Below, one piece after another: positions 2 to 33,405 of a stretch of DNA of 33,405 nucleotides (position 1 is its first letter; every line of letters starts with the position of its first letter). Source of the DNA: a virus; IMG/VR virus record IMGVR_UViG_3300017727_001923, positions 1 to 33,405 of that record; one strand, 5' to 3'. Position numbers and translations under genes: made by a program. A model generated the notes under the pieces. It ran no database searches and was not told the origin of the DNA. It saw only the letters and a list, made by a program, of their open reading frames with translations.

Positions 2-949
2 AAAGACTTTGAAGATTATGGTTATGATGTACAGAATAATGTACATCGTATCTACAGTGGTAAGGACAAGACTACCGACAAACCAGTTATTATCTCTACA
101 TGGCAATCAATCCATAGATTTTCTAAGGATTGGTTTGAGAATATGGGTTGTGTGTTTGGAGATGAAGTCCATTTATTCAAGGCAAAGTCTTTATCTGGTA
201 TCATGAATAAGTGTGTCAATGCGGAATATAGATTCGGTACTACAGGTACATTAGATGGTACAGAAACAAATAAACTTGTATTAGAAGGACTCTTTGGCCC
301 TACTCATAGAGTGACAATGACCAAGGACTTACAAGAACAGGGTAAACTTGCAAAGATAGATATCTCTGTTTTACTACTTCGTTATCATAATGATATATGT
401 CATAGGTTAAAGGAAGCGACCTATCAAGAAGAAATAGATTATATTGTTACAAATGAGAAAAGAAATAAACTTATAACTAATCTTGCCTTAGACCAGAAGG
501 GTAATTCTCTGGTGTTATTCCAATTCGTAGAGAAACATGGTAAACCTTTATTTGATATGATTAAGGATAAAGCGGGTGACCGACCAGTATATTATGTAAG
601 TGGTGAGGTAGAGGCAAAAGACCGAGAACAGATACGTGGTATCGTAGAGGGACAAAAGAATGCAATTATTGTTGCTAGTTTGGGGACTTTCAGTACTGGT
701 ATTAATATTAGGAATCTTCATAATATAGTATTCGCATCACCTAGTAAGAGTCAAGTTAAGGTACTGCAATCGATTGGGCGTGGACTGAGGAAGTCTGACG
801 ATGGTTCTGTGACCAAATTATACGATATAGCGGATGACTTACATATAAAATCACACAAGAACTTTACGTTGAGACACTCAGCAGAACGTATTAAAATATA
901 CACCAAGGAACAATTCCCATATAAGATTTATAAACTTGACTTGAAATGA
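2..949 (+). CDS. uvsW: UvsW-like SF2 DNA/RNA helicase, 5'-truncated by the window edge
   Basis: Frame is open from base 2 (KDFEDYGY...STWQSI). Motifs DEVH, GTTGT, TFSTGINI and QSIGRGLR. Typical position upstream of gp55. Confidence 0.93.
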   Translation, partial: KDFEDYGYDVQNNVHRIYSGKDKTTDKPVIISTWQSIHRFSKDWFENMGCVFGDEVHLFKAKSLSGIMNKCVNAEYRFGTTGTLDGTETNKLVLEGLFGPTHRVTMTKDLQEQGKLAKIDISVLLLRYHNDICHRLKEATYQEEIDYIVTNEKRNKLITNLALDQKGNSLVLFQFVEKHGKPLFDMIKDKAGDRPVYYVSGEVEAKDREQIRGIVEGQKNAIIVASLGTFSTGINIRNLHNIVFASPSKSQVKVLQSIGRGLRKSDDGSVTKLYDIADDLHIKSHKNFTLRHSAERIKIYTKEQFPYKIYKLDLK

Positions 950-2592
950 ACCAAATACCTATAGTAGAGAGAAGACCTCGTGGATTATTATTTGGTGGGT
1001 TTACCTCTCCCGATGAAAGACATGAAGAATATGCAAAGGAGATTCACACTGACTCAGAAATGGTGGTGCAAGGAATCTTTAATGGTATAGAAGCATTTCG
1101 TAGTTTTGGTAATCACAGAATCGCAACCCATATTAGAAAACATGGATGGGATGTAGAATGTATCGATTACAGTATATTCTTTACTAATGATGAACTATCT
1201 GAAATACTACGTACCAGAGTAACCAAGGATACTTTGTTTATTGGTTTCAGTATGATGTTCCATACGATGGCAACCGAACGACTTGTATGGTTTACCAATC
1301 ACATAAGAGAAAACTATCCGTGGGTAACACTCGTTGCGGGTGGACAAAAGACTTGGACAGTTACATGTGTTGAAGCAGATTATTATATCACTGGTAATGG
1401 TGAGTATGCAATGAGTGCTTTGTGCAAATATCTCACAGGTGAAGGAGAAGACCTAAAGGTACACAAGACATTGAAGAATGGTGGTAAGTTGATTACCGCA
1501 CAACACAGTTATCCGTGTTTCCCTAAGAGAGATGCAAACATATCATTCGAAGAACGTGACCATATCAAACCTAGTGAGACAATAAATATTGAGTTTGCAC
1601 GGGGGTGTATCTTTGAGTGTAAATATTGTTCGTTCCCTCTGTTGGGTATGAAACAAGATACGACCCGTAACGAAGAGAGTGTTTATCAAGAGTTACTAGA
1701 GAACTACGAGAAGTGGGGAACAACCAACTACTATATTACAGATGATACAGTAAACGACTCGAAGGACAAGATTGCACTTATCGCTCGTGCAGTAAGAAGA
1801 CTACCATTCCAACCACATTTCAGTGGGTATGTCAGAGCAGACCTATTGATTACACATGGAAAAGATACTTGGGATGATATGATTGATATGGGATTTACCT
1901 CGCATAGTTATGGGGTAGAAACCTTTAATCATAAGTCTGGTAAGACAGTAGGTAAAGGAATGAAACCAGAAAAACTCAAGAAGGGTCTATTAGAGATTCA
2001 AGAGTATTTTCGTGAGAGGTCACCCAACTACTATTGTGGTACATTTACAATGATTGCGGGTCTTCCTCATGAAACGTTTGAATCACTAGAAGAAACCAAG
2101 AATTGGGTCAACGAACATTGGGGTGGACATGTCGTATCTTTTCTACCGTTGATGTTATCAGAACCCGATGACGAACAAGCAGATGCGATTGACTGGAAGG
2201 TCTACAATAACTTTATGGAATATGGGTATACATACTCATATGATGAACCACATATAACAAATCCCGAAATAAGAAAAAAGGTTGACGGGATGCGGAAGAT
2301 GAAACGAAACAATAAGAACCGTGAAAAGAATCTATGGAACTACTGGGTGCATCCAAGTGGAGATTATGACTTTATAGATATGATTGAATGGGTACACGAG
2401 TTCACCAAAGAACGAGTTGAGTCAAAAATGAATCCCGCTGGCGTATGGCAAACTTGTTTTGTCCATGCAGAAGTATGGGAGAATCCCAAGGAAGGATATA
2501 AATATTATAAACAGGGACACGAAAATTTACCAGTTAAAGGTCTGATAAATATAATCAGAAACTATAAACTAAACAAAATGGAATTACAATGA
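946..2592 (+). CDS. Radical SAM protein with probable N-terminal cobalamin-binding-like domain
   Basis: CxxxCxxC motif in ARGCIFECKYCSF. N-terminal IGFS...VAGG...DYYITGNGE pattern typical of B12-binding radical SAM enzymes. DDTVN, YGVET and MIAGLPHET barrel motifs. Confidence 0.85.
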   Translation: MNQIPIVERRPRGLLFGGFTSPDERHEEYAKEIHTDSEMVVQGIFNGIEAFRSFGNHRIATHIRKHGWDVECIDYSIFFTNDELSEILRTRVTKDTLFIGFSMMFHTMATERLVWFTNHIRENYPWVTLVAGGQKTWTVTCVEADYYITGNGEYAMSALCKYLTGEGEDLKVHKTLKNGGKLITAQHSYPCFPKRDANISFEERDHIKPSETINIEFARGCIFECKYCSFPLLGMKQDTTRNEESVYQELLENYEKWGTTNYYITDDTVNDSKDKIALIARAVRRLPFQPHFSGYVRADLLITHGKDTWDDMIDMGFTSHSYGVETFNHKSGKTVGKGMKPEKLKKGLLEIQEYFRERSPNYYCGTFTMIAGLPHETFESLEETKNWVNEHWGGHVVSFLPLMLSEPDDEQADAIDWKVYNNFMEYGYTYSYDEPHITNPEIRKKVDGMRKMKRNNKNREKNLWNYWVHPSGDYDFIDMIEWVHEFTKERVESKMNPAGVWQTCFVHAEVWENPKEGYKYYKQGHENLPVKGLINIIRNYKLNKMELQ

Positions 2593-3080
2593 GTTACAGA
2601 GAAGAGTTCGAATTAAGACAATTTAAATTAACCTCTGGGGAAGAGATTGTTGCGGAGATTCTCCAGTGGAATGAAGAGGTTCATGGTAGTCTTGAGATTG
2701 TGATTAGAAAAGCAATGAGACTAAAATTAGTTGAGACCGAAGAAGGTATCAAGTATTACTCGTTTCGACCTTGGATGGTTTACCAAGAACATCCCGAAGA
2801 TATTCTTATCTTGAATGGGAACAATGTTATTGGTATAGCATTTCCACCCGATACGTTGGTCTTGCAATACGATACCGCAGTCAAAGAAATGACTGTTATG
2901 AACGAAGAAAGAGAACAAGAATTCACTCAACAACTTGCTGATAAAGTTCATAAAGGAAGATTTGCACAAAGAAAACCACGTGCATCAAATGAAGATGGAT
3001 TGAAAGAATTCTTACAACAGGATAGTGGGAGTAATGTTATCAGTATGTTTGGTGACATAGACCCGACAAAAATACACTAA
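2589..3080 (+). CDS. Conserved T4-like phage protein, possible Sm/Hfq-like fold
   Basis: N-terminal FKLTSGEEIVAEI beta-rich motif seen in the gene following uvsW in marine T4-like phages. ATGA overlap with the upstream gene. Confidence 0.55.
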   Translation: MSYREEFELRQFKLTSGEEIVAEILQWNEEVHGSLEIVIRKAMRLKLVETEEGIKYYSFRPWMVYQEHPEDILILNGNNVIGIAFPPDTLVLQYDTAVKEMTVMNEEREQEFTQQLADKVHKGRFAQRKPRASNEDGLKEFLQQDSGSNVISMFGDIDPTKIH

Positions 3081-3652
3081 TGCTTAAACTTCGTAATGTA
3101 CATGATGATTATATCTTTATCAAGATGCTTGATGATGAAGATATGAATATGAGGATAGTTGACCGACTTAATTCATTGGATGAACGCATTCTAGATACTA
3201 ATGTAGAGTCGGGAATTATTCCCGCAGTAAAACAGTTTCCTGAATTTCAAAAACTACAAACAATCGTAGAAAACTTTTGTAAAGAATCTTCAGAAAAGAT
3301 ACAGTTAGATTGGTGGGGACATCATTCACGAAACGAACCAAACAAATTTTGGAATAAATCATATATACAATCACAGTATTGTAATGTTATGTGGGGAGTA
3401 CGTCAAGTCAGTGGACAAATCACGACACCGCACGACCATTGGCCAACCACGTGGTCATTTGTTTATTACATCGACCCACCCGAAGGATGTTCTAATTTAT
3501 TTTTTCCAACCCTAGATTATGGGTTAGAAATTGAACATGGGAAATTAGTTATCTTTAGAAGTCATTTGATACATGAAACTGTATCATTACCATTCGAAGA
3601 TTACCGATATTGTGTTGCTGGAACTGTAGTATTCAGCCTCCCCGAACGCTAA
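3080..3652 (+). CDS. 2OG-Fe(II) oxygenase-like protein
   Basis: PHDH...WSFVYYI...LVIFRSHLIH...RYCVAG: HxH...H...R DSBH pattern. Confidence 0.75.
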   Translation: MLKLRNVHDDYIFIKMLDDEDMNMRIVDRLNSLDERILDTNVESGIIPAVKQFPEFQKLQTIVENFCKESSEKIQLDWWGHHSRNEPNKFWNKSYIQSQYCNVMWGVRQVSGQITTPHDHWPTTWSFVYYIDPPEGCSNLFFPTLDYGLEIEHGKLVIFRSHLIHETVSLPFEDYRYCVAGTVVFSLPER

Positions 3653-3656
3653 GCTT

Positions 3657-3685
3657 ATTATACACTGAGAAACAACTTTTGTCAA
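3657..3685 (-). promoter_or_regulatory. Consensus sigma70 promoter, antisense orientation
   Basis: Minus strand reads TTGACA-aaagttgtttctcagtg(17)-TATAAT, with TG immediately before the -10. Confidence 0.75.
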
Positions 3686-4125
3686 GCCCTAATTTAAAAA
3701 AAATCGGTATTACTTTTTCATGCTTTGACCTGTTCCATGCGGGACATGTTCAGATGTTAAGAGAAGCAAAGACTGTCTGTGATTATCTTATTATAGGATT
3801 ACAGGTAGACCCTAGTATCGACAGACCCGAAAAGAACTCCCCACTTCAATCTATAACTGAAAGATATATACAGGTAGATGCATGTAAATACGTAGATGAA
3901 ATTATTCCCTACAGTACTGAATCGGATTTACTAGACCTATTAGAACTGGTTCACTATGATATCAGAATAATTGGAGAGGAGTACAGAGATAAAGACTTCA
4001 CTGGTAAGCAACTAGCACTTGACAATTGCAGAGAGATATACTATAATAGTAGACATCACAGATTCAGCAGCAGTCAATTACGACATATAATGGAAAATGA
4101 AAATGGCAAAGACGGAAAAGATTAA
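3679..4125 (+). CDS. Glycerol-3-phosphate cytidylyltransferase-like (TagD family) nucleotidyltransferase
   Basis: FSCFDLFHAGH (HxGH motif), YVDEIIPY, R..SSS C-terminal motif. Start uncertain (TTG at 3679 chosen). Confidence 0.85.
   Translation: MSSPNLKKIGITFSCFDLFHAGHVQMLREAKTVCDYLIIGLQVDPSIDRPEKNSPLQSITERYIQVDACKYVDEIIPYSTESDLLDLLELVHYDIRIIGEEYRDKDFTGKQLALDNCREIYYNSRHHRFSSSQLRHIMENENGKDGKD
4019..4047 (+). promoter_or_regulatory. sigma70 promoter for gp55
   Basis: TTGACA-17 nt-TATAAT embedded in the 3' end of the cytidylyltransferase gene. Confidence 0.8.
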
Positions 4126-4708
4126 ACCAAAAGATAAACCGCATTACGTTAATAATGCACAGTTCTCGCAATCAGTTGTAGACTACTGTACACTTGTAAA
4201 AGAAGCAAAAGAGTCTGGTGGAAAACAACCCATCATTCCTGATTATATTGCAACGTGTTTTTTAAAGATTTGTGAAGGATTATCACATAAGGCAAACTTC
4301 GTTCGATATACATATCGTGAAGAGATGGTAATGGATGCAGTAGAGAACTGTCTAAAAGCAATTCAGAACTATAATATTGAAGCTGCAACACGTACAGGTA
4401 AACCAAATGCGTTTGCATACTTTACACAGATTTCATGGTTTGCATTCCTACGTAGGATTGAGAAAGAAAAGAAACAACAAGATATTAAGATGAAGTATAT
4501 GGAACAATCTGGTATCGAAAACTTCCTTGACCAAGAGTTAGGTGACGCACAATCAAATCAAGTTGCTGCCGCATTTGTTGACCAACTTAGATTCCGTATT
4601 GATGAAATCAAAGACAGAGATAGGGAATGGAAAGAAATTGTTAAGAAGGAACGTAAGAGGAGAACTGTAAAAGTAGACTCTGACTTGGGTGACTTCATAG
4701 AAGATTAA
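4097..4708 (+). CDS. gp55: Late-transcription sigma factor gp55
   Basis: HYVNN...FVRYTYREEMVMDAVENC...NAFAYFTQI.WFAFLRRI.KEKKQ. Located before gp47/gp46. Confidence 0.95.
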   Translation: MKMAKTEKIKPKDKPHYVNNAQFSQSVVDYCTLVKEAKESGGKQPIIPDYIATCFLKICEGLSHKANFVRYTYREEMVMDAVENCLKAIQNYNIEAATRTGKPNAFAYFTQISWFAFLRRIEKEKKQQDIKMKYMEQSGIENFLDQELGDAQSNQVAAAFVDQLRFRIDEIKDRDREWKEIVKKERKRRTVKVDSDLGDFIED

Positions 4709-26780: not shown

Positions 26781-26966
26781 ATGAAAAAGACGAAACGTAT
26801 AAAGTCTCGTCACGCACGGGTACTGTTCACAAAGGACAGTCCTTTTACCCACAAGGTTGTGCCTGACAAGACCAAGTATAACCGCAAAAAGAATCCCCGC
26901 AAAGTCGGGGATTTTTCTTATTGGTCTTTATTAAATTCTCTAAAAGGTCTAACCTTCCCATCGTAG
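26781..26966 (+). CDS. ArfA-like basic protein (candidate ribosome rescue factor) with a terminator inside the ORF
   Basis: AAGGAG RBS; ARVLFTKDSPFTHKVVPDKTKYNRKK resembles the ArfA core (A.L..D..F...V...K...Y.RK). Confidence 0.5.
   Translation: MKKTKRIKSRHARVLFTKDSPFTHKVVPDKTKYNRKKNPRKVGDFSYWSLLNSLKGLTFPS
26886..26919. terminator. Bidirectional intrinsic terminator
   Basis: AAAAAG-AATCCCCG-CAAAGT-CGGGGATT-TTTCTT between convergent genes. Confidence 0.8.
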
Positions 26967-27229
26967 AATAACATCTTATACCAAGGAGTATCTCTTTTCA
27001 TACGTGGGATTGTATACTCAAACTTCTTCCCTTCTTTGTTAATCCAAACCACGTGATATCCAATCCATCTTCTTGACGGATACCATTGTGCCTTACCACC
27101 ATTTACAATCAGATTCTCTAGTGTCCAGAAATAACAATTGTTCTTTTTAGTGAACAAACGTATTGGCCATGACCAGAAAAACACAATCATGAGTGCAAAT
27201 GTAATCCATTTTCTGTATAAATTATCCAT
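26918..27229 (-). CDS. Hypothetical protein with N-terminal TM helix; the only clear minus-strand gene
   Basis: Start MDNLYRKWITF; ends at the terminator; occupies a gap with no + strand gene. Confidence 0.65.
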   Translation of the reverse strand: MDNLYRKWITFALMIVFFWSWPIRLFTKKNNCYFWTLENLIVNGGKAQWYPSRRWIGYHVVWINKEGKKFEYTIPRMKRDTPWYKMLFYDGKVRPFREFNKDQ

Positions 27230-27256: not shown

Positions 27257-27264
27257 TATAAATA
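27257..27264 (+). promoter_or_regulatory. T4-type late promoter heading the csg/FecR/cyclase operon
   Basis: TATAAATA 5 nt before ATG 27270. Confidence 0.7.
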
Positions 27265-27269
27265 AAGGC

Positions 27270-27551
27270 ATGGATGAGATGGTAATACTAGTCTCCGAAT
27301 TGGGTTTTCCAGTTGCTGCTGCATGTTTGGGTGGGTTCTTCATGTTCCTAACATTAAAATACATAATGAATGGTGTTATTGATAAGGTAAATTTTATCAG
27401 TAATATGGTCTCTGGTCTCGATAATCGGGTAAAAAATATGAATCACGATATGATTCGTATGGATACAACCATGTGTGTAGTATTAGGAATCAAACCAGAC
27501 TTGAATAGAATTAGTAGAGCGGATGGACAGAAAGATGCACGGAGGGATTAA
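27270..27551 (+). CDS. Small membrane protein with coiled coil (paralog 1)
   Basis: ELGFPVAAA TM helix followed by GLDNRVKNMNHDMIR.D. Confidence 0.75.
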   Translation: MDEMVILVSELGFPVAAACLGGFFMFLTLKYIMNGVIDKVNFISNMVSGLDNRVKNMNHDMIRMDTTMCVVLGIKPDLNRISRADGQKDARRD

Positions 27552-27562
27552 TTGTTGAAACA

Positions 27563-27811
27563 ATGGATGTAGTTACAGCAATAAAAGATTTCGGCTTTCC
27601 GATAGTTGCCGCATTGGGGATGCTTTACGTCATCTATTTTGTGTGGAAGACTATAACACAACAAGTAGAATCCAAGTTAGATGATGCACATATAGTCATT
27701 ATTGGTCTTATTGACCGAGTGAGAATGTTAGATAATGATATCATTCGATTGCAACAGAAATTAGATACTGCAATAGAAATGGGGAGAAAAGAAAAAGAAG
27801 ATGAAGAATAA
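27563..27811 (+). CDS. Small membrane protein with coiled coil (paralog 2)
   Basis: DFGFPIVAA TM helix followed by GLIDRVRMLDNDIIRL. Confidence 0.75.
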   Translation: MDVVTAIKDFGFPIVAALGMLYVIYFVWKTITQQVESKLDDAHIVIIGLIDRVRMLDNDIIRLQQKLDTAIEMGRKEKEDEE

Positions 27812-28283
27812 TTTTAGTTTAGTAGAAAAAATAGAATCAGCATGTTTGTTAATTGCTTTTGGTCTTATGTTGTTTGTTGTAGTTGAAGTACAAGCTGCAC
27901 CCAAAGAACACAAATTTAAATCACCATCATTTAGTGGAATAAATCAATCGTCACATTATTTGACAATTGAGAACCAAGAGACTTCAAGAAAAGAAGCTAT
28001 AAAACAGGAGATTAAAGACCTCAAAGAACAGATGGAGAGGGACGCAGAAAATACAACCCTCGCAAAATTTATTAGGAATGTCGAAAGCAGAATCTACTCG
28101 ACATTATCAAGACAAATAGTAGATGGTATGTTCGGAGAGAATCCTAGTGATACAGGTTCTTTTAATATCGAAGGTACTGGGATATCATACGTCAGAGACG
28201 GTGATTCAGTAATATTAACAATAACAGATGAGAACGGTAATGTCACGACTATTACTATTCCCCTTGGTGATTTTGGTATCTAG
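27801..28283 (+). CDS. csgF: Curli assembly protein CsgF-like
   Basis: Signal peptide (VQA|A), FKSPSFSG (cf. CsgF F.NP.FGG), C-terminal ITDENG..T.I.IP. Confidence 0.75.
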   Translation: MKNNFSLVEKIESACLLIAFGLMLFVVVEVQAAPKEHKFKSPSFSGINQSSHYLTIENQETSRKEAIKQEIKDLKEQMERDAENTTLAKFIRNVESRIYSTLSRQIVDGMFGENPSDTGSFNIEGTGISYVRDGDSVILTITDENGNVTTITIPLGDFGI

Positions 28284-29037
28284 TTGTTCAACTTTAGGGG
28301 ATAAAATAGAATTCCCCACCGAAGAACAACCAAAGGTTCAAGAAACATTACTTCAATCTGAATTAAGGAATGTTTCGAAACCAACAAGGAAACCAACTGT
28401 AGCTGTATATCAGTTTACAGACCAAACGGGACAAAAAAGACAGAACAGTAGTGGTGGAACAAGTTTTAGTTCTGCTGTTACACAAGCACCTTCAGTGTAT
28501 CTAATTAGAGCATTGAAACGTGCTAGTAAGGGAAATTTCTTCAGGGTGGTTGACCGTCAAATTATTGACCATGTGACGAGAGAACGTCAATTAATACGAC
28601 AAACTCGTCAATCATATGAAGGAAATGACTCTCAGAAGTTGCCAGCGCTTACTTTTGCTGGCATGATTATTGCTGGGGGTATAGTAGGATACGATTCTTC
28701 TATTGACACAGGAGGTAGTGGTGCCAGAACATTAGGCATTGGTGGTTCTCGTGAATTTAGTGTAGACACCGTTACGGTGAATATTAGATTGGTTTCGGTT
28801 GCTACGGGTGAAGTTTTACTTGATGTTATAACAAGTAAGACAATACTATCTACAGCGTACAGTGGAGATGTATTTAAATTTATAGAACAGGGTACTCAAC
28901 TTATAGAAATAGAAAGTGGAGTTACTCAAAACGAAAGTGTATCAATTGCTACTCAACGGGCAATTGAGCAAGGAGTCCTAGAACTTATTTTGAGGGGGTC
29001 TCAAAAAGGTTTCTGGACATTAACTGGAGAAAAATAA
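28228..29037 (+). CDS. csgG: Curli secretion channel CsgG/HfaB-like lipoprotein
   Basis: Lipobox LVSS|C; VAVYQFTDQTGQ, STAVTQ-like, F.VVDR...ERQLIR, GGIVGYD, D.VTV.IRLVSV.TGEVL. Confidence 0.9.
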   Translation: MRTVMSRLLLFPLVILVSSCSTLGDKIEFPTEEQPKVQETLLQSELRNVSKPTRKPTVAVYQFTDQTGQKRQNSSGGTSFSSAVTQAPSVYLIRALKRASKGNFFRVVDRQIIDHVTRERQLIRQTRQSYEGNDSQKLPALTFAGMIIAGGIVGYDSSIDTGGSGARTLGIGGSREFSVDTVTVNIRLVSVATGEVLLDVITSKTILSTAYSGDVFKFIEQGTQLIEIESGVTQNESVSIATQRAIEQGVLELILRGSQKGFWTLTGEK

Positions 29038-29765
29038 TGAACGTTAAGGCAAAATCATTTTATGCTGTGATGTTCGTAATTGGTGCTGCATATGCTTATG
29101 CAGACAATGAAGTCTATATAGACCAAGTAGGAAATGGTGGAGATATAGAAATTATACAAGACGGTAGTGGAAATAAACTAGGTGGTGGTCTATCAGATAC
29201 CAGTAAATTCCTCCTCGATGGGGCGGACATGGATTTCAAGGTCAATTTGACTGGTGGAAGTAATAACCTAATAGGTTCTATTATTGGTACTAGTACAGTT
29301 GATATTGATGTCAGTGGTTCTTCGAACGATTTACTTTTTGATATTGATAAAGACAACTCATTTGGTGCTGAAAATGGTGATTACGTAATTGATATAACTG
29401 GTGGTAATAATGACCTAGACTTTGACTTTGGTTCTTTAGATACTGCTAATGACCTAGACTTTGATTTCGTATTAGACGGTGATTTTAACACCGCTGATGT
29501 GAATATTGATGCAACAGGGGTCGTATTCAATATGGACGTAGTTTCAGACAACTCAAACTTGTTATATAATGCAAGTGGTTATGATGGACATAACTTTGTT
29601 CTGACTGGAACAGGTAACTATTGGGACATTGAAGTTCACCAAGAGTCTACTTTACAGGCAGATTCATTGGAGATAGAATATGAAGGTTCTGGTACAAGCA
29701 CGACAGACGCAACTATTTGTATTAGTCAGTCTGATGATGGGACTAACACTAACTGCGGAGGCTAA
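29037..29765 (+). CDS. Secreted curlin-like beta-solenoid protein
   Basis: Signal peptide AYA|D; NEVYIDQVGNG, IEIIQDGSGN, I.I.G..N repeats; C-terminal Cys pair. Confidence 0.65.
   Translation: MNVKAKSFYAVMFVIGAAYAYADNEVYIDQVGNGGDIEIIQDGSGNKLGGGLSDTSKFLLDGADMDFKVNLTGGSNNLIGSIIGTSTVDIDVSGSSNDLLFDIDKDNSFGAENGDYVIDITGGNNDLDFDFGSLDTANDLDFDFVLDGDFNTADVNIDATGVVFNMDVVSDNSNLLYNASGYDGHNFVLTGTGNYWDIEVHQESTLQADSLEIEYEGSGTSTTDATICISQSDDGTNTNCGG
29408..29464 (+). repeat. 18-nt direct repeat within the curlin-like gene
   Basis: TAATGACCTAGACTTTGA at 29408 and 29447 (NDLDFDF twice). Confidence 0.7.
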
Positions 29766-30801
29766 TGATACTGACGTAGGTGCAGTAGACAAGGCAGTTG
29801 GTTGGAGACAAATACTTAGAGACACAACTAAGATTGAACCCGCTATGGGTCAAGATGTAATCTCGAAGGATGACCTTCGCACAGGTGAAGGTCGCCTTCA
29901 GGTTCGTTTTTTAGATGATTCGAAATTAAGAATGACAGAACATACACGTATCGTAATTGATAACGTGGTATTTGACGATGACCCAAGTAAGTCTGACTTG
30001 GCGATGACGTTTGCCCAAGGAACTGCTAGATTCATATCTGGTGGTTTGGGTAAGGTTGACAAAGAAAATATCAGACTCAAAACCCCTACCGCATCAATCG
30101 GTATCAGGGGTACAGATTTTACGGTAACCGTTGACGAATTCGGGAAAACGCTCGTGGTACTTTTGCCAGACGTAAACGGTATTTCATCTGGTGAGATTAT
30201 TGTTTCAACAATGACAGGTGAGGTTGTACTCAACAAACCGTTCGAGTCCACAACAACAACAGTTGCAGAAACCGCTCCATCTGCACCCGCAATCCTAGAC
30301 TTGACTCTGGATATGTTAAACAATATCATGATTATCAATCCCCCCAAAGAAGTACAGACACAAGAAGAGTTCATGTCAAGTGTCACTGCATCTAAAAACA
30401 TCAATCCATTAGACATAGACTTCCTTGACGAAGATTTATTGCAAGATGAGTTTGAAGAAGATTTGTTGGAATTTACAGAACTTGATATCAATTATCTAGA
30501 CGTTGACCTACTCGAAGACATGTTAGATACTTTTGATAGTCTAGGAGAAGATATCCTACAAGAAAAACAAAGTACAGGTGAGTTAAATCTACAGGGAACA
30601 GAAGAAGGATTTGATACAGTCACACAGGTCGCAACAGTCATAGAAGGAGACAAAGTAACCTTTAACAGAACAGTAAACGATACCGCAGTAGTAACTGTAG
30701 ACAAAAATGCACTGACCAATTTATTAATAGAACAAGACGGAAAAGAACTTGACCCGATTCGTGTAAACGGTGTCGAAACAGAAATCATAATAAAACAATG
30801 A
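29680..30801 (+). CDS. FecR-domain periplasmic protein with acidic C-terminal region
   Basis: Signal peptide; D.LRTGEGR.Q.RFLDDS.L...EHT, G.ARF.SG, TPTASIGIRGTDF. Confidence 0.85.
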   Translation: MKVLVQARQTQLFVLVSLMMGLTLTAEANDTDVGAVDKAVGWRQILRDTTKIEPAMGQDVISKDDLRTGEGRLQVRFLDDSKLRMTEHTRIVIDNVVFDDDPSKSDLAMTFAQGTARFISGGLGKVDKENIRLKTPTASIGIRGTDFTVTVDEFGKTLVVLLPDVNGISSGEIIVSTMTGEVVLNKPFESTTTTVAETAPSAPAILDLTLDMLNNIMIINPPKEVQTQEEFMSSVTASKNINPLDIDFLDEDLLQDEFEEDLLEFTELDINYLDVDLLEDMLDTFDSLGEDILQEKQSTGELNLQGTEEGFDTVTQVATVIEGDKVTFNRTVNDTAVVTVDKNALTNLLIEQDGKELDPIRVNGVETEIIIKQ

Positions 30802-31211
30802 AGTACTGGATACCATTACTTGCATTTATACTGTTTACCGTTCCTTCGTGGGGACTAGACCTAACACTACCCGAACCCGAAGAACCCTATGATTACGAAG
30901 AGATAGAAATACCAGAAGTTTATATATTTAATTTTGGTGACTATAACGAACCCCCGACTAGAACACAACTGACTATATTCTGGACTCTCAATGCATTAGA
31001 TGTGTGGACAACACATAGAGCATTAAAAGATTGTCCTAATTGTAGAGAGATGAATCCATTGCTACCAGACAGACCAAAACTTGAAGACCTCTTATTACAG
31101 AAAGCAATCGTAGGTGGCATAATACATTGGCAATCAAGTAGTGACTATATGACGGGTATAAATATAGGTTTAACATACGCAGTCGTAAACAACTATAAAA
31201 TAGTGTACTAG
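30798..31211 (+). CDS. Exported/membrane protein, DUF5658-like
   Basis: Signal peptide; LD..TT..AL...E.NPLL motif. Confidence 0.55.
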   Translation: MKYWIPLLAFILFTVPSWGLDLTLPEPEEPYDYEEIEIPEVYIFNFGDYNEPPTRTQLTIFWTLNALDVWTTHRALKDCPNCREMNPLLPDRPKLEDLLLQKAIVGGIIHWQSSSDYMTGINIGLTYAVVNNYKIVY

Positions 31212-33032
31212 ATGAAAACATGGCATGTATTTGTCACCCTTATTGTCATGGTGACATTAAGATTATTAGACCCCTTCTTATTAGAGAGTGCAAGACTCTC
31301 ATTCTTTGATTCTATGCAGAGGACACAGGATGTGTCTATATCAGAACAAATTGTACTGGTAGATATAGATGAGAAGACTCTAGATAAGTTCGGACAGTAT
31401 CCCATTCCCCGTAAAGTAATGGCAGATGAGATTGATAAGATTGATGGTAGTATTATTGCATTCAATATCTTGTTTTCAGAAGAAGACAGAATGGGTGGAG
31501 ATGAATACTTTGCAGACATCTTATCATGGAAACAAGCAATTGTTGCAATCGCACCATCCAACAGAACCAACACAGACTATCGTCCACCTCGTATAGGTAC
31601 TGCGACATTTGGTGATAGGGACGCAGAAGACTTTAGACCAGAACTGCCAGGCATGTTGTTTGCACAACCAATCATCCACGACAATGCATTTGGTTATGGT
31701 ACAATATCATCTGCACAGGATGTTGATGGTATTGTCAGAAGACAACCCCTATTAGAGAACTTTGATAATAGACTGTATCCCGCATTCGCATTAGACGTAC
31801 TTAGAGTTGCGGCAGGGGATTCATCTTATCAGATATCCACGGATGACTATGGTATTCAGTTTGTTCGTATTCCCAAGTTCAAACCAATCACTACAGATGT
31901 AAACGGTAACGTTACAATCGCATACTGGAATGAGTTTAAAAGATATTCATTCACAGAACTAGACCAAATACCCGAAGGTTCAATTATTATTGTAGGTGCA
32001 ACTTTTGAAGGTTCTAATGTGGTATCTACACCAATGGGTGCAATGTACCCCCATGATATTCAAGCAAATCTAATCAAGACAATGATTGATGGTGTAGTTT
32101 TAAAACGACAGTCTGAATTCATGTTATATGAAATTATTGTAAGTGTCATACTAAGTGTCATACTTATTGCATTCATAACACTTGCACCAATATCTGTATC
32201 TGGTATGACGTTTGGTGTCATACTCATGGGAATATACTATTTTGTAACTGATACATTCTCAACATATTTCTATATGGTTGACCCAGTATTTCCTATATTA
32301 ACCATGGTGGTCATATTTGCACATGGTTCGTTTGTTCAGTTCTATACACAGTTCAAAGCTAAACAGATGATTAAGGGACAGTTTGGTACATACCTATCAC
32401 CCGACATGGTGGACATGTTGGCAAAAGACCCCAGTCTTATGAAGTTGGGTGGTGAGAGAAAAGAGATGACGTTCCTATTCATGGACATATGTGGATTCAC
32501 CCCCATAAGCGAGCATTATAAAAACAAGGATGATGCAGAGGGTTTGGTCACACTTATTAATAACTACTTAAATGAGATGACTAATATTATCCTAAATAAC
32601 GGTGGAACAATCGACAAGTATATGGGCGATTGTATTATGGCATTCTGGAACGCACCCTTACCGTGCGACAATCACGCAGAGATGGCAGTTAAATCTGCAA
32701 TAGAGATAGAAGAAAAGACTAATGAACTTAGACAAAAATATCAAGAACAAGGTCTCCCGCCTATTAATGTTGGAACTGGTATTAACACTGGTACTTGTAT
32801 TGTTGGTAATATGGGTAGTGAATCGAGATTTGATTATTCAGTCATTGGAGACTCCGTCAACCTTGCCGCAAGACTTGAAGCAACCGCAGCAAGAGGAGAC
32901 TACCTTGAATACAAGACCATCTACTCTAGTTTTACAATGGAAAAACTCACCACTATTAATTCGAGACCAATAGGTCAGATTAAAGTGAAGGGTAAGGAGG
33001 AGATGATTGATATCTACACAATGGACAGATAA
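31212..33032 (+). CDS. CHASE2-domain class III adenylate/guanylate cyclase
   Basis: IVLVDIDEKTL...FSEEDR...DVDGIVRR (CHASE2), 3 TM helices, FMDICGFT, IDKYMGDCIMAFW, GNMGS..RFDYSVIGDSVNLAARLE. Confidence 0.95.
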   Translation: MKTWHVFVTLIVMVTLRLLDPFLLESARLSFFDSMQRTQDVSISEQIVLVDIDEKTLDKFGQYPIPRKVMADEIDKIDGSIIAFNILFSEEDRMGGDEYFADILSWKQAIVAIAPSNRTNTDYRPPRIGTATFGDRDAEDFRPELPGMLFAQPIIHDNAFGYGTISSAQDVDGIVRRQPLLENFDNRLYPAFALDVLRVAAGDSSYQISTDDYGIQFVRIPKFKPITTDVNGNVTIAYWNEFKRYSFTELDQIPEGSIIIVGATFEGSNVVSTPMGAMYPHDIQANLIKTMIDGVVLKRQSEFMLYEIIVSVILSVILIAFITLAPISVSGMTFGVILMGIYYFVTDTFSTYFYMVDPVFPILTMVVIFAHGSFVQFYTQFKAKQMIKGQFGTYLSPDMVDMLAKDPSLMKLGGERKEMTFLFMDICGFTPISEHYKNKDDAEGLVTLINNYLNEMTNIILNNGGTIDKYMGDCIMAFWNAPLPCDNHAEMAVKSAIEIEEKTNELRQKYQEQGLPPINVGTGINTGTCIVGNMGSESRFDYSVIGDSVNLAARLEATAARGDYLEYKTIYSSFTMEKLTTINSRPIGQIKVKGKEEMIDIYTMDR

Positions 33033-33405
33033 CTTCCTTTCACCCGAAGAATACTCAGAAGTTCAAGAACTCTCAAACTCTATTCACTTCCATAGTGCAG
33101 AAGAGTATGCAGACAAATACGGTGATAGTACACATCCACACCCTATCAAGAATTTCAATTGGAAAGAATGGAAAGAGTGTAGACGCAGTGACAATCTGAT
33201 TGATTATCTAGATAATGTCACTGATAAGATAAACTCTATGTTTGAGTGTGAGGTTAGTAGACTGGAATACTTCCAACACCCTCTTGAAAACTTTCCAACG
33301 TATGACGATTCCCCCCCAAAACATATCGATGCAAAATTCGAATTCTCTGGTGTCTTGTATCTAGACCAAGGTAAGGAAGGACTAGGTACTACAGTTGGAG
33401 ACCAG
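33007..33405 (+). CDS. 2OG-Fe(II) oxygenase-like protein, 3'-truncated by the window edge
   Basis: TTG after AAGGAGG; DNFLSPEE...HIDAKFEFSGVLYL...GT. Frame open to the end; not in the ORF track. Confidence 0.7.
   Translation, partial: MISTQWTDNFLSPEEYSEVQELSNSIHFHSAEEYADKYGDSTHPHPIKNFNWKEWKECRRSDNLIDYLDNVTDKINSMFECEVSRLEYFQHPLENFPTYDDSPPKHIDAKFEFSGVLYLDQGKEGLGTTVGDQ

What the first reader, a model, noticed from the sequence alone, without database searches (positions are those of the whole stretch)
27257..33032. Late-expressed phage operon: CsgF/CsgG pore, curlin-like protein, FecR and CHASE2 cyclase as a candidate trans-envelope signalling system
Seen: one TATAAATA late promoter followed by eight tightly packed or overlapping genes (two membrane paralogs, csgF-like, csgG-like, curlin-like, FecR, DUF5658-like, CHASE2 cyclase), with no terminator I could find between them. 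Known: CsgG/CsgF form the outer-membrane curli channel, FecR domains relay signals across the periplasm, and CHASE2 class III cyclases are inner-membrane receptors often found next to FecR genes in bacteria. As I recall, csgF/csgG genes have been noted in SAR11-type myophages without a demonstrated function. Inference: the operon supplies one component per envelope layer (surface solenoid, OM pore, periplasmic FecR, IM cyclase). It may sense an outside event such as superinfecting phage adsorption or cell contact and convert it to cAMP late in infection, for example to control lysis timing, rather than building biofilm amyloid.
Basis: partly seen in the sequence, partly recalled or inferred. 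Interest (0 to 1): 0.85.

Follow-up and report, generated by a model that had tools for sequence, protein, structure and literature searches.

The report
Known phage curli-pore plus cyclase operon
This marine T4-like phage carries an intact copy of an already published "viral curli" gene block: an outer-membrane pore, a fibre-type secreted protein, an exported FecR-type protein and a membrane enzyme that makes cAMP. The block probably joins secretion to an envelope sensor, but nobody has tested what it does.

Summary
Eight overlapping or abutting + strand genes (27270-33032) follow TATAAATA (27257-27264) and a strong upstream terminator (26889-26916). They are two single-pass membrane paralogues, CsgF, CsgG, a CsgA-like acidic beta-solenoid, a signal-peptide FecR-domain protein, a DUF5658-like protein, and a CHASE2 class III adenylate cyclase with all catalytic residues.

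The block is not new. It is the pelagiphage "viral T8SS" region of Wittmers et al. 2022 (PMC9599517), also present in HTVC008M and Melnitz. This scan has already noted it on many other genomes.

- In IMG/VR loci the genes travel together in both directions: from CsgG, FecR 43/43 and cyclase 42/43; from the cyclase, CsgG and FecR 42/42.
- It is a phage-only fusion of two bacterial modules. Twenty bacterial CsgF-CsgG-curlin loci had no FecR or cyclase. Exported FecR followed by a CHASE2 cyclase is a pair in Sinorhizobium, Rhizobium, Ruegeria, Methylocystis and Methyloprofundus.
- The late promoter, often 5-8 nt before the ATG, is conserved in relatives.
- The published "histidine kinase" label for the small genes found no support.
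- No cAMP receptor was found in the phage, and few in Pelagibacterales (3/61 genomes).

The trans-envelope sensor reading is plausible but untested. The claim that it is a sensor rather than a fibre system is not supported. This is a new member of a known kind, of moderate-to-low interest.

The parts
26889..26916 (.). Strong bidirectional intrinsic terminator that insulates the block from upstream + strand transcription. It also ends the minus-strand gene 27229-26918.
   Evidence: 11-pair stem with 5 G-C pairs and a T run, found on both strands. Many relatives have the same layout: terminator, about 20-25 nt, TATAAATA, ATG.
27257..27264 (+). T4-type late promoter motif TATAAATA, 5 nt before the first ATG. 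This implies a leaderless or near-leaderless late mRNA.
   Evidence: TATAAATA lies within 100 nt upstream of the first gene in 36 of 52 distinct relatives, mostly 5-8 nt before the ATG. Six of the 30 genome-wide TATAAATA sites sit exactly 5 nt before the ATG of an ORF of 50 aa or more.
27270..27551 (+). Small membrane protein 1 (93 aa): one N-terminal TM segment with a GFP motif, then a conserved amphipathic helix. Found only in viruses. Presumably one of the genes labelled 'HK' in the literature.
   Evidence: phrog_18771 at 7e-29. TM at 5-29. No Pfam or NCBIfam family, and no kinase domain even at E up to 10. The ESM Atlas gives only viral clusters; the nearest named is YvrJ at 0.89. Present in 71 of 72 relatives.
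27563..27811 (+). Small membrane protein 2 (82 aa), a paralogue of the first.
   Evidence: phrog_18771 at 3e-25, and a weak hit to holin phrog_4898 at 0.0019. TM at 10-28. Among GenBank phages it hits only HTVC008M and Melnitz.
27801..28283 (+). CsgF homologue (160 aa) with a signal peptide and the N-terminal F-K-S-P-S-F-S-G motif.
   Evidence: PF10614 at 1.9e-16 and phrog_35372 at 4e-43. The motif is read from the translation. No phmmer hit to the PDB.
28228..29037 (+). CsgG homologue (269 aa): outer-membrane lipoprotein pore with lipobox V-S-S-C20.
   Evidence: PF03783 at 6e-47. It aligns over its full length to E. coli CsgG 3x2r/6l7a at 3e-43, with the lipid Cys and the F56-equivalent of the constriction loop aligned. 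C20 and F80 are invariant in 10 viral homologues.
29037..29765 (+). CsgA-like curlin beta-solenoid (242 aa). It has a signal peptide, net charge about -37 and regularly spaced invariant G-x-x-N turns. It is the probable T8SS substrate.
   Evidence: AF2 pLDDT 81.7 and pTM 0.78, all-beta. VIA-align top hit is Pontibacter CsgA 8c50, Z 18.7, rmsd 9.0, 214 residues aligned, 21% identity. Invariant N/Q/G ladder. An HMM of the viral homologues hits proteins encoded downstream of CsgFG in bacteria. Pfam Curlin_rpt is only 0.041.
29680..30801 (+). Exported FecR-domain protein (373 aa): signal peptide, FecR beta-sandwich (about 60-205) with invariant R-G-T-D-F, a conserved acidic LDxDFL-type linker, and a small C-terminal beta domain. 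It has no anti-sigma domain.
   Evidence: PF04773 at 1.3e-11 and phrog_37870 at 1e-56. Alignment A1. The AF2 model is only partly confident: FecR domain pLDDT 64-88, linker below 50. Present in 43/43 and 42/42 relatives.
30798..31211 (+). DUF5658-like accessory protein (137 aa) with a signal peptide. A rare insert between FecR and the cyclase.
   Evidence: No Pfam hit of its own. Relatives: L064 hits DUF5658 at 2.5e-5 and L010 at 0.044. It occupies the same slot only in L010 and L018. It lies elsewhere in L064, L066 and L075. In most close relatives the FecR stop abuts the cyclase start.
31212..33032 (+). CHASE2 receptor adenylate cyclase (606 aa): TM1 at 6-24, periplasmic CHASE2, three TM segments at 308-377, and a cytosolic class III (IIIb-like, Lys/Ser) catalytic domain.
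   Evidence: PF05226 at 1.3e-37 and PF00211 at 8e-20. The best solved relative is P. aeruginosa CyaB 3r5g at 9e-39. D425, K469, D473, S543, N550, R554 and K593 are conserved in 36-37 of 37 distinct viral homologues. Topology.

Best explanation
This is a copy of the published pelagiphage-type 'viral T8SS/curli' late operon. It is a variant with one curlin gene and an inserted DUF5658-like gene.

The block fuses two bacterial modules, and the fusion was seen here only in phage-type DNA:
1. A curli-type secretion set (CsgF, CsgG, CsgA-like subunit).
2. A sensor pair (exported FecR-domain protein plus CHASE2 adenylate cyclase).
Two virus-only single-pass membrane paralogues precede both.

Proposed working, with the basis of each step:
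- Late in infection the operon is transcribed from TATAAATA as one nearly leaderless mRNA (inferred from sequence and conservation).
- Sec exports CsgG (lipoprotein, outer-membrane pore), CsgF (pore cap), the acidic CsgA-like solenoid (secreted through CsgG to the surface) and the FecR protein (periplasm). These placements are inferred from signal peptides, the lipobox and homology.
- The cyclase sits in the inner membrane with CHASE2 facing the periplasm, and its catalytic domain is active (inferred from complete, conserved catalytic residues).
- The FecR protein is the hinge. It goes with the T8SS genes in every viral locus examined, and with CHASE2 receptors in bacteria. It most likely binds the CHASE2 domain and sets cyclase activity according to the state of the secretion channel, its substrate or the envelope. 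A periplasmic or surface event thus becomes cytoplasmic cAMP (inference, untested).
- The cAMP target is unknown and probably not a CRP-type regulator.
For: - Composition and order.
- Same order in HTVC008M and Melnitz. Published description: PMC9599517 and PMC7029224.
- Co-inheritance. From CsgG, curlin and FecR are present in 43/43 loci, the cyclase in 42/43, and the two membrane genes in 71/72. From the cyclase, CsgG, curlin and FecR are present in 42/42.
- Among 50,697 GenBank phage records, CsgG, FecR, membrane protein 2 and the full-length cyclase all hit HTVC008M and Melnitz. Apart from those, only one 1.5-kb Salmonella-phage CsgG record and three catalytic-domain-only cyclase hits turned up.
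- Phage-only fusion. Twenty bacterial CsgF-CsgG-curlin loci had no FecR, cyclase or membrane-protein match within 10 kb.
- The best rhizobial homologues of the cyclase lie next to the best homologues of the FecR protein on eight replicons. FecR followed by a cyclase on the same strand is also seen in Ruegeria, Methylocystis and Methyloprofundus.
- Active cyclase. Topology and export signals. CsgA-like fold.
- Late promoter conserved in relatives.
- Precedent for outer-membrane-protein-dependent CHASE2 cyclase signalling: PMC7529298, PMC13001267.
- Precedent for an exported FecR-domain protein (LysM-FecR) encoded next to a CHASE2 kinase: PMC5192318.
Against: - No interaction was predicted or measured, because no multimer folding tool was available.
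- The FecR model is poor outside the FecR domain.
- No cNMP-binding, GAF or Usp domain was found in the phage.
- cNMP_binding was found in only 3 of 61 Pelagibacterales genomes, and a class III cyclase in none of 60 others. The output therefore has no known receptor if the host is SAR11-like. The host of this phage is not established.
- According to PMC9599517 the cyclase is often missing from the podophage versions, so the T8SS plus FecR core works without it.
- In 6 of 35 relatives the cyclase has its own late promoter motif, which is compatible with a looser functional link.
Confidence: 0.45

Rival explanations
1. A plain curli fibre system, the reading of Wittmers 2022 and Zaragoza-Solas 2020. 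The block makes surface amyloid on infected cells. The fibres could cause aggregation ('sibling capture') or form a shield against superinfecting phages. FecR, the cyclase and the small genes only regulate the system or are accessory.
For: - CsgF and CsgG are intact. The substrate is a confident CsgA-like solenoid whose best structural match is a solved CsgA.
- Both ends of the solenoid are the best conserved parts, as expected for head-to-tail stacking.
- Many relatives carry a second curlin gene that could act as nucleator.
- Proposed in PMC9599517 and PMC7029224.
Against: - This window and its close relatives have only one curlin gene and no CsgB-like or CsgE-like gene.
- The proposed regulators sit in the same late operon as the genes they would regulate, and no CRP-type receptor is in sight, so cAMP control of expression as in E. 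coli is unlikely.
- The Melnitz authors saw no clumping in culture (PMC9004378).
- The subunit is extremely acidic (net about -37), unlike what I recall of E. coli CsgA.
Confidence: 0.25
2. Two independent cargo modules that merely travel together. The T8SS part and the FecR-cyclase part each act on the host separately, and their linkage reflects joint transfer, not joint function. For example, cAMP could serve host takeover or counter-defence.
For: - The two modules are separate in bacteria.
- The cyclase is optional in podophage versions (PMC9599517).
- The cyclase sometimes has its own promoter motif or lies 1-7 kb away.
Against: - FecR is kept with the T8SS genes in every viral locus examined, even where the cyclase is displaced.
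- The viral cyclase family was never seen without the T8SS genes (42/42).
- Order and translational overlaps are conserved from about 40% to 90% identity.
Confidence: 0.12
3. A lysis-timing device, the Melnitz hypothesis and part of the first reader's idea. CsgG alone or CsgG/CsgF acts as a gated pore or pinholin analogue. The two small membrane proteins act like a holin-antiholin pair, and cAMP tunes the timing.
For: - Late promoter.
- No T4-type holin or SLT lysin was detected in the genome.
- Membrane protein 2 has a weak hit to a holin PHROG (0.0019).
- Proposed in PMC9004378.
Against: - CsgG has a lipobox and aligns end to end with outer-membrane CsgG, so it is not an inner-membrane pinholin.
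- An outer-membrane pore of about 1 nm cannot depolarise the cell.
- The holin hit is weak, and the first membrane protein has none.
- This reading does not explain a conserved secreted solenoid and FecR protein.
Confidence: 0.08
4. An import channel with a sensor. The ungated CsgG pore lets nutrients or cofactors into the periplasm, and FecR-CHASE2 senses them.
For: No CsgE gate gene was seen in the block. Import was suggested in PMC7029224 and PMC9599517. A TonB/ExbBD cluster lies next to the Ruegeria FecR-cyclase pair, which may be coincidence.
Against: It does not explain the universally kept CsgF and curlin-like substrate. The FecR protein lacks the anti-sigma part and any TonB-dependent partner in the block.
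Confidence: 0.05

Closest known systems
Pelagiphage viral T8SS (curli) region with FecR and adenylate cyclase (Wittmers et al. 2022, PMC9599517; Zaragoza-Solas et al. 2020, PMC7029224). Cultured examples: Pelagibacter phage HTVC008M (KC465899, 6.9-13.8 kb) and Methylophilales phage Melnitz (MZ577097, 50.1-56.9 kb).
   Same: Same genes in the same order: two small genes, CsgF, CsgG, curlin, FecR, cyclase. Same place in the genome, after the replication module of a T4-like marine phage. CsgG is 41% and 39% identical and the cyclase 44% and 35% identical to HTVC008M and Melnitz.
   Different: This window has only one curlin gene. A 137-aa DUF5658-like gene sits where HTVC008M and Melnitz have a second curlin. 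The papers do not mention the CHASE2 domain or the late promoter. They call the small genes 'histidine kinase', which no search here supports.
Bacterial curli system / type VIII secretion (E. coli CsgG-CsgF 6l7a; Pontibacter korlensis CsgA 8c50)
   Same: CsgG lipoprotein pore, CsgF with its N-terminal pore-binding motif, and a CsgA-like beta-solenoid substrate.
   Different: No CsgB, CsgE, CsgC or CsgD in the window. The substrate is very acidic and falls below the Pfam Curlin_rpt cut-off. The block is encoded by a lytic phage under a late promoter. It is joined to FecR and a cyclase, which 20 bacterial CsgFG loci lacked.
Sinorhizobium meliloti CHASE2 adenylate cyclases CyaD1/CyaD2/CyaK, with outer-membrane NsrA and the neighbouring FecR-domain protein SMc02177 (PMC7529298, PMC5498481, PMC13001267)
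   Same: Full-length homology of the cyclase, about 28-30% identity including CHASE2. A FecR-domain gene lies next to the cyclase. The signal reaches the inner-membrane cyclase through an outer-membrane beta-barrel protein, and the output is cAMP.
   Different: The outer-membrane partner there is NsrA, not CsgG. There is a Clr (CRP-type) receptor, but none was found for the phage. The role of the FecR-domain protein in perception was not shown there either.
Burkholderia 'BiofilmReg' operon: response regulator, LysM-FecR protein, CHASE2 histidine kinase (PMC5192318)
   Same: An exported FecR-domain protein is encoded directly before a CHASE2 receptor.
   Different: The output is a histidine kinase with a response regulator, not a cyclase. 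The FecR protein carries LysM. No secretion pore is present.
FecA-FecR-FecI cell-surface signalling
   Same: It contains a FecR domain. The logic of relaying an outer-membrane event across the periplasm is the same.
   Different: The phage protein has a cleavable-type signal peptide instead of the cytoplasmic anti-sigma domain plus TM. The block has no ECF sigma factor and no TonB-dependent transducer. It is not a member.

Membership tests
Pelagiphage viral T8SS/curli region (Wittmers 2022) | CsgF, CsgG and a curlin-repeat gene together in a marine phage genome | tested here: met
   The window carries T4-like replication genes. G000 is a complete 149-kb virus record.
Pelagiphage viral T8SS/curli region (Wittmers 2022) | One or two small genes ('HK') before the T8SS genes, and FecR, then often an adenylate cyclase, after them | tested here: met
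   Gene order. It matches HTVC008M and Melnitz and the text of PMC9599517.
Pelagiphage viral T8SS/curli region (Wittmers 2022) | Homology of each gene to the viral family, not only the same domain | tested here: met
   tblastn of all window proteins against HTVC008M, Melnitz and 77 IMG/VR loci.
Bacterial curli T8SS | CsgG outer-membrane lipoprotein with lipobox Cys and a CsgG fold-level alignment | tested here: met
   3e-43 to E. coli CsgG over residues 5-266, with Cys20 aligned. Cys invariant.
Bacterial curli T8SS | CsgF with the N-terminal pore-binding segment | tested here: met
   PF10614 at 1.9e-16, covering profile positions 7-132 of 132. F-K-S-P-S-F-S-G follows the signal peptide.
Bacterial curli T8SS | Major subunit with curlin repeats (CsgA) | tested here: inconclusive
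   Pfam Curlin_rpt at 0.041 is below the cut-off. However, the confident AF2 solenoid has solved CsgA 8c50 as its top match (Z 18.7, rmsd 9.0, 214 residues aligned, 21% identity), and it has an invariant G-x-x-N/Q ladder.
Bacterial curli T8SS | Nucleator CsgB (second curlin) and periplasmic gate CsgE | tested here: not met
   There is no second curlin in the window, although relatives have one. No gene of the block matches CsgE in Pfam or NCBIfam.
Bacterial curli T8SS | Formation of extracellular amyloid fibres | not testable with these tools
   This needs microscopy or dye binding on infected or expressing cells.
Class III adenylate cyclase (IIIb-like) with CHASE2 receptor domain | Two metal Asp, adenine-specifying Lys plus Thr/Ser, and transition-state Asn and Arg | tested here: met
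   Alignment to CyaB 3r5g. D425, K469, D473, S543, N550 and R554 are conserved in 36-37 of 37 viral homologues.
Class III adenylate cyclase (IIIb-like) with CHASE2 receptor domain | TM, periplasmic CHASE2, three TM segments, cytosolic output domain | tested here: met
   PF05226 at 1.3e-37 over residues 9-315. Hydrophobic segments at 6-24 and 308-377.
Bacterial FecR-domain protein + CHASE2 receptor pair | An exported FecR-domain protein encoded directly next to a CHASE2 receptor gene | tested here: met
   In the window, FecR and the cyclase are separated only by the 137-aa insert. In close relatives they abut. Bacterial pairs: and PMC5192318.
Bacterial FecR-domain protein + CHASE2 receptor pair | Physical or functional coupling of FecR to CHASE2 | not testable with these tools
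   No multimer prediction or assay was available. As far as I found, it has not been shown in bacteria either.
FecR/FecI/FecA cell-surface signalling | FecR with an N-terminal cytoplasmic anti-sigma domain and one TM, plus an ECF sigma factor and a TonB-dependent transducer | tested here: not met
   Only the FecR domain matches, at residues 64-159. The N-terminus is a signal peptide. The block has no sigma factor or transducer.
Histidine kinase (label used for the small upstream genes) | HisKA/DHp and HATPase_c domains | tested here: not met
   The proteins are 93 and 82 aa. There is no Pfam hit to any kinase family at E up to 10 and no NCBIfam hit. The ESM Atlas neighbours are all viral hypotheticals.
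Holin / pinholin lysis proteins | A small inner-membrane protein matching a holin family; the pore lies in the inner membrane | tested here: inconclusive
   Membrane protein 2 hits holin phrog_4898 at 0.0019, and protein 1 does not. CsgG itself is an outer-membrane lipoprotein type.

The most novel reading that the evidence does not exclude
The block is a phage-built, envelope-spanning sensor. The surface solenoid and the CsgG/CsgF channel pick up an outside event late in infection, such as adsorption of a second phage or cell contact. The FecR protein relays it to the CHASE2 cyclase. The resulting cAMP acts through a receptor of a new kind, since neither the phage nor most SAR11 genomes have a known one. 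The two small membrane paralogues are possible receptors. The outcome would be a change in lysis timing or superinfection exclusion.
Probability: 0.1. Interest if true: 0.8.

Novelty: new member of a known kind. Interest (0 to 1): 0.33.

Why it matters
The block is very common in ocean viruses. At least 585 IMG/VR stretches encode this cyclase family. PMC9599517 reports it at all 65 GOV2 stations and in metatranscriptomes. It gives streamlined hosts an outer-membrane secretion system and, apparently, cAMP synthesis, both of which they lack. Its function is still unknown.

This window adds no new system. It sharpens the question in five ways:
- The block is a phage-only fusion of a curli secretion set with a bacterial FecR-CHASE2 sensor pair.
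- It is driven by a conserved late promoter.
- The cyclase is catalytically complete.
- The small 'kinase' genes are not kinases.
- The cAMP has no recognisable receptor.

If the sensor reading were shown, it would be a rare case of a virus installing its own envelope signalling pathway.

Tried and rejected
- The C-terminus of the FecR protein ends in I-x-I-x-Q-x-N, like the last strand of the curlin-like protein. I tested whether it carries a curlin-type repeat. Profile-profile comparison of A1 and A3 gave nothing (probability 0.4%), so the idea was dropped.
- The AF2 model of the FecR protein was poor (mean pLDDT 54). Only the FecR domain is usable, and the linker and C-terminal domain stay unresolved.
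- Foldseek against the PDB found no significant match for the curlin-like model. Only the wide VIA-align search found CsgA.
- The search for homologous proteins on the CHASE2 part listed only viral-type proteins of at least 64% identity among its best 120, so it gave no bacterial context.
- The profile search with FecR gave many representatives that match only the FecR domain.
- The top 'bacterial' CsgG loci, L081-L088, carry the whole viral block on MAG contigs. I treated them as probable binned phage DNA and not as bacterial occurrences. I did not check their flanks for phage genes.
- No hit in the phage genome for cNMP_binding, GAF, Usp, T4 holin T or SLT.
- Another note of this scan says the FecR-CHASE2 pair comes from adhesin (two-partner) secretion loci. 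I did not see this in the five bacterial contexts I read, and I did not test it further.

Full report
**What is there.** The window is the left end (1-33405) of a complete 149,135-bp IMG/VR virus record with terminal repeats. Upstream of the finding lie T4-type replication genes: SbcCD-like nuclease, clamp loader, gp43-type polymerase, primase, UvsX and gp41-type helicase. From 27270 to 33032, eight + strand ORFs overlap or abut.

Pfam, PHROGs and NCBIfam give:
- Two paralogous small proteins, both phrog_18771.
- CsgF (PF10614, 1.9e-16).
- CsgG (PF03783, 6e-47).
- A 242-aa protein with only a weak Curlin_rpt hit (0.041).
- A FecR-domain protein (1.3e-11).
- A 137-aa protein without hits.
- A CHASE2 plus class III cyclase protein (1.3e-37 and 8e-20).

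Its 'DUF5658-like' call holds indirectly. A relative of the 137-aa protein in locus L064, about 30% identical, reaches DUF5658 over the Pfam cut-off.

**Promoter and operon.**
- TATAAATA sits at 27257-27264, 5 nt before the first ATG.
- A strong bidirectional terminator at 26889-26916 closes the upstream units. Inside the block only weak hairpins are found.
- A conserved minus-strand gene (26918-27229) leaves just 40 nt of intergenic DNA, so the promoter has to be there.
- In 36 of 52 distinct relatives, TATAAATA lies within 100 nt upstream of the first gene. In most it is 5-8 nt before the ATG, and a terminator often precedes it.
- Genome-wide, 6 of 30 TATAAATA sites lie exactly 5 nt before the ATG of an ORF of 50 aa or more. 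This fits late transcripts that start at or just before the start codon. That transcription starts about 6 nt after the motif is my recollection of T4, not a result here.
- The motif count in the window alone is only mildly above chance: 7 sites against 2.8 expected, and 3 of 100 shuffles reach 7. The case rests on conservation and phasing.

**The proteins.**
- CsgG aligns end to end with E. coli CsgG (3e-43). The lipobox Cys and the Phe of the constriction loop align and are invariant among viral homologues.
- CsgF has a signal peptide followed by F-K-S-P-S-F-S-G, conserved in relatives.
- The 242-aa protein has a signal peptide, a net charge near -37 and invariant G-x-x-N and Q positions at regular spacing.
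  - Its AF2 model is confident (pLDDT 82, pTM 0.78) and all-beta.
  - Foldseek found nothing significant.
  - The wide VIA-align search put solved Pontibacter korlensis CsgA (8c50) first: Z 18.7, rmsd 9.0, 214 residues aligned, 21% identity. Generic beta-helices ranked below it.
  - An HMM of the viral homologues also hits proteins encoded downstream of CsgF-CsgG in Hymenobacter and other bacteria.
  - I take it as a diverged CsgA-type subunit.
- The FecR protein has a signal peptide and no anti-sigma domain. It has a FecR domain with invariant R-G-T-D-F, a conserved acidic linker with twin LDxDFL-type motifs, and a small C-terminal beta domain. Its model is poor outside the FecR domain.
- The cyclase has one TM segment, a periplasmic CHASE2 domain, three TM segments and a cytosolic catalytic domain.
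  - Its closest solved relative is P. aeruginosa CyaB (9e-39).
  - Both metal aspartates, the adenine lysine, a Ser at the Thr/Asp position, and the Asn, Arg and phosphate Lys are present.
  - These residues are kept in 36-37 of 37 distinct viral homologues.
  - It should make cAMP.
- The two small proteins each have one N-terminal TM segment and a conserved amphipathic helix.
  - They match no kinase family at any threshold.
  - Their only neighbours in the ESM Atlas are viral hypotheticals.
  - The 'histidine kinase' label in PMC9599517, which presumably refers to them, is not supported.

**Prior art.**
- HTVC008M and Melnitz carry the same block in the same order.
- Zaragoza-Solas et al. 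2020 first described the operon and suggested uptake or 'sibling capture'.
- Buchholz et al. 2022 suggested a lysis-timing pore.
- Wittmers et al. 2022 described the full set: small 'HK' genes, CsgF, CsgG, CsgA/B, FecR, an optional second curlin and an adenylate cyclase. They covered both podo- and myo-type pelagiphages, with phylogenies, ocean-wide distribution and metatranscript evidence. They noted that FecR, HK and the cyclase are not part of bacterial curli operons.
- That paper does not mention CHASE2 or promoters.
- This scan has also noted the block many times on other genomes, and the follow-up verdicts agree with mine.

- Starting from CsgG, 77 IMG/VR loci were found, at 38-90% identity.
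  - With at least 6.5 kb downstream: curlin 43/43, FecR 43/43, cyclase 42/43.
  - The one exception belongs to a type in which the cyclase lies 7.3 kb further on.
  - With at least 1.5 kb upstream: both small genes 71/72, CsgF 72/72.
- Starting from the cyclase, I took the best 80 of at least 585 viral stretches. With at least 7.5 kb upstream: CsgG, curlin and FecR 42/42, and the small genes and CsgF 41/42.
- The two sets share some contigs.
- Among GenBank phages, CsgG, FecR, membrane protein 2 and the full-length cyclase all hit HTVC008M and Melnitz. The only other hits were a 1.5-kb Salmonella-phage CsgG record and three matches to the cyclase catalytic domain alone.
- The genes do not assort independently.
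- The 137-aa gene is a rare, movable extra. In most close relatives the FecR stop abuts the cyclase start.

**Origin of the parts.**
- A scan of one genome per prokaryote species with a CsgG profile gave 28 loci.
  - Eight are MAG contigs that carry the whole viral block. I take them to be binned phage DNA, although I did not check their flanks.
  - The other twenty (Hymenobacter and others) have CsgF-CsgG and curlin-like genes. None has a FecR, cyclase or small-membrane-protein match within 10 kb.
- Conversely, the best plasmid or chromid homologues of the phage cyclase match over the full length, including CHASE2, at about 29% identity. They include S. meliloti CyaK and the CyaD1-type locus. 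On eight replicons they lie next to the best homologues of the phage FecR protein.
- FecR followed by a cyclase on the same strand is seen in Ruegeria, Methylocystis and Methyloprofundus. In Methyloprofundus a CRP gene sits beside the pair.
- A LysM-FecR gene before a CHASE2 kinase is the Burkholderia BiofilmReg layout.
- So the phage block joins a curli secretion set to a bacterial FecR-CHASE2 sensor pair, and the join was seen only in phage-type DNA. The bacterial sample is small and biased, so 'not found in those searched' is the right wording.

**How it may work.**
[quoted passage not shown] An outer-membrane-to-CHASE2 relay therefore has a precedent.
- The FecR protein is the shared element. 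It is kept with the T8SS genes in all viral loci and paired with CHASE2 receptors in bacteria.
- My best reading has three parts:
  - The T8SS exports the acidic solenoid.
  - The FecR protein couples the state of the channel, the substrate or the envelope to the cyclase.
  - The cyclase makes cAMP.
- This is inference. No interaction was tested.
- Against a simple 'cAMP regulates curli expression' model, the would-be regulators sit in the same late operon as the genes they would regulate.
- The phage has no cNMP-binding, GAF or Usp domain.
- In a sample of Pelagibacterales genomes, cNMP_binding was found in 3 of 61. A class III cyclase was found in none of 60 others, the only hit being the phage-like contig itself.
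- The host of this particular phage is unknown. HTVC008M, which infects SAR11, has the same block.
The contrast 'rather than amyloid' is not justified, because secretion and sensing can both be true.

**Verdict.** The thing is a new member of a published kind, in a single-curlin, DUF5658-insert variant. Interest is moderate to low for this window. The open question, what this abundant viral module does and what reads its cAMP, remains a good experimental target.

Noticed in passing
G000 (window genome) coordinates 27257, 54814, 106304, 141289 (+ strand) and 85914, 96186 (- strand): Six TATAAATA sites lie exactly 5 nt before the ATG of an ORF of 50 aa or more. This recurring promoter-ATG phasing suggests leaderless or near-leaderless late mRNAs in this phage.
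   Followed up: partly
window 26918-27229 (- strand): A conserved gene of about 103 aa with an N-terminal hydrophobic segment lies divergent from the block, 40 nt from its start. It is present at 64-94% identity in many relatives and has no Pfam family.
   Followed up: no
window 31157-31164: A second TATAAATA lies inside the 3' end of the DUF5658-like gene, 47 nt before the cyclase ATG. In 6 of 35 distinct relatives a [TC]ATAAATA lies 5-7 nt before the cyclase ATG, so the cyclase is sometimes its own late unit.
   Followed up: partly
L081-L088 (genome contigs): Contigs of MAGs labelled Flavobacteriales, Rhodobacterales, Sphingobacteriales, Saprospirales and Pelagibacter carry the whole viral block. 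Two of them are 121 and 142 kb long. They look like phage genomes binned into bacterial MAGs and could be misread as bacterial occurrences.
   Followed up: partly
L115 (AP023241.1, Methyloprofundus plasmid) 230-4344: A compact bacterial three-gene unit: a CRP-family cAMP receptor gene divergent from a FecR-like gene followed by an adenylate cyclase gene. Here the receptor that the phage lacks sits next to the pair.
   Followed up: no
window 29680-30801, residues 143-147 and about 240-285: R-G-T-D-F is invariant in the FecR domain. From memory, the Gly-Thr self-cleavage site of cell-surface-signalling anti-sigma factors lies in this motif. There is also a conserved twin acidic LDxDFL / LDVDFL motif of unknown role.
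   Followed up: no
L089-L108 (bacterial CsgG loci): In Hymenobacter and other bacteria the open frame holding CsgG is about 470 codons from stop to stop, much longer than the 269-aa phage CsgG. A C-terminal extension or a misjoined frame was not examined.
   Followed up: no
window 33007-33405 (continues to 33525 in G000): The next + strand ORF overlaps the cyclase stop and is conserved after the cyclase in many relatives at 35-82% identity. It has no family match, so it may belong to the same transcript.
   Followed up: no
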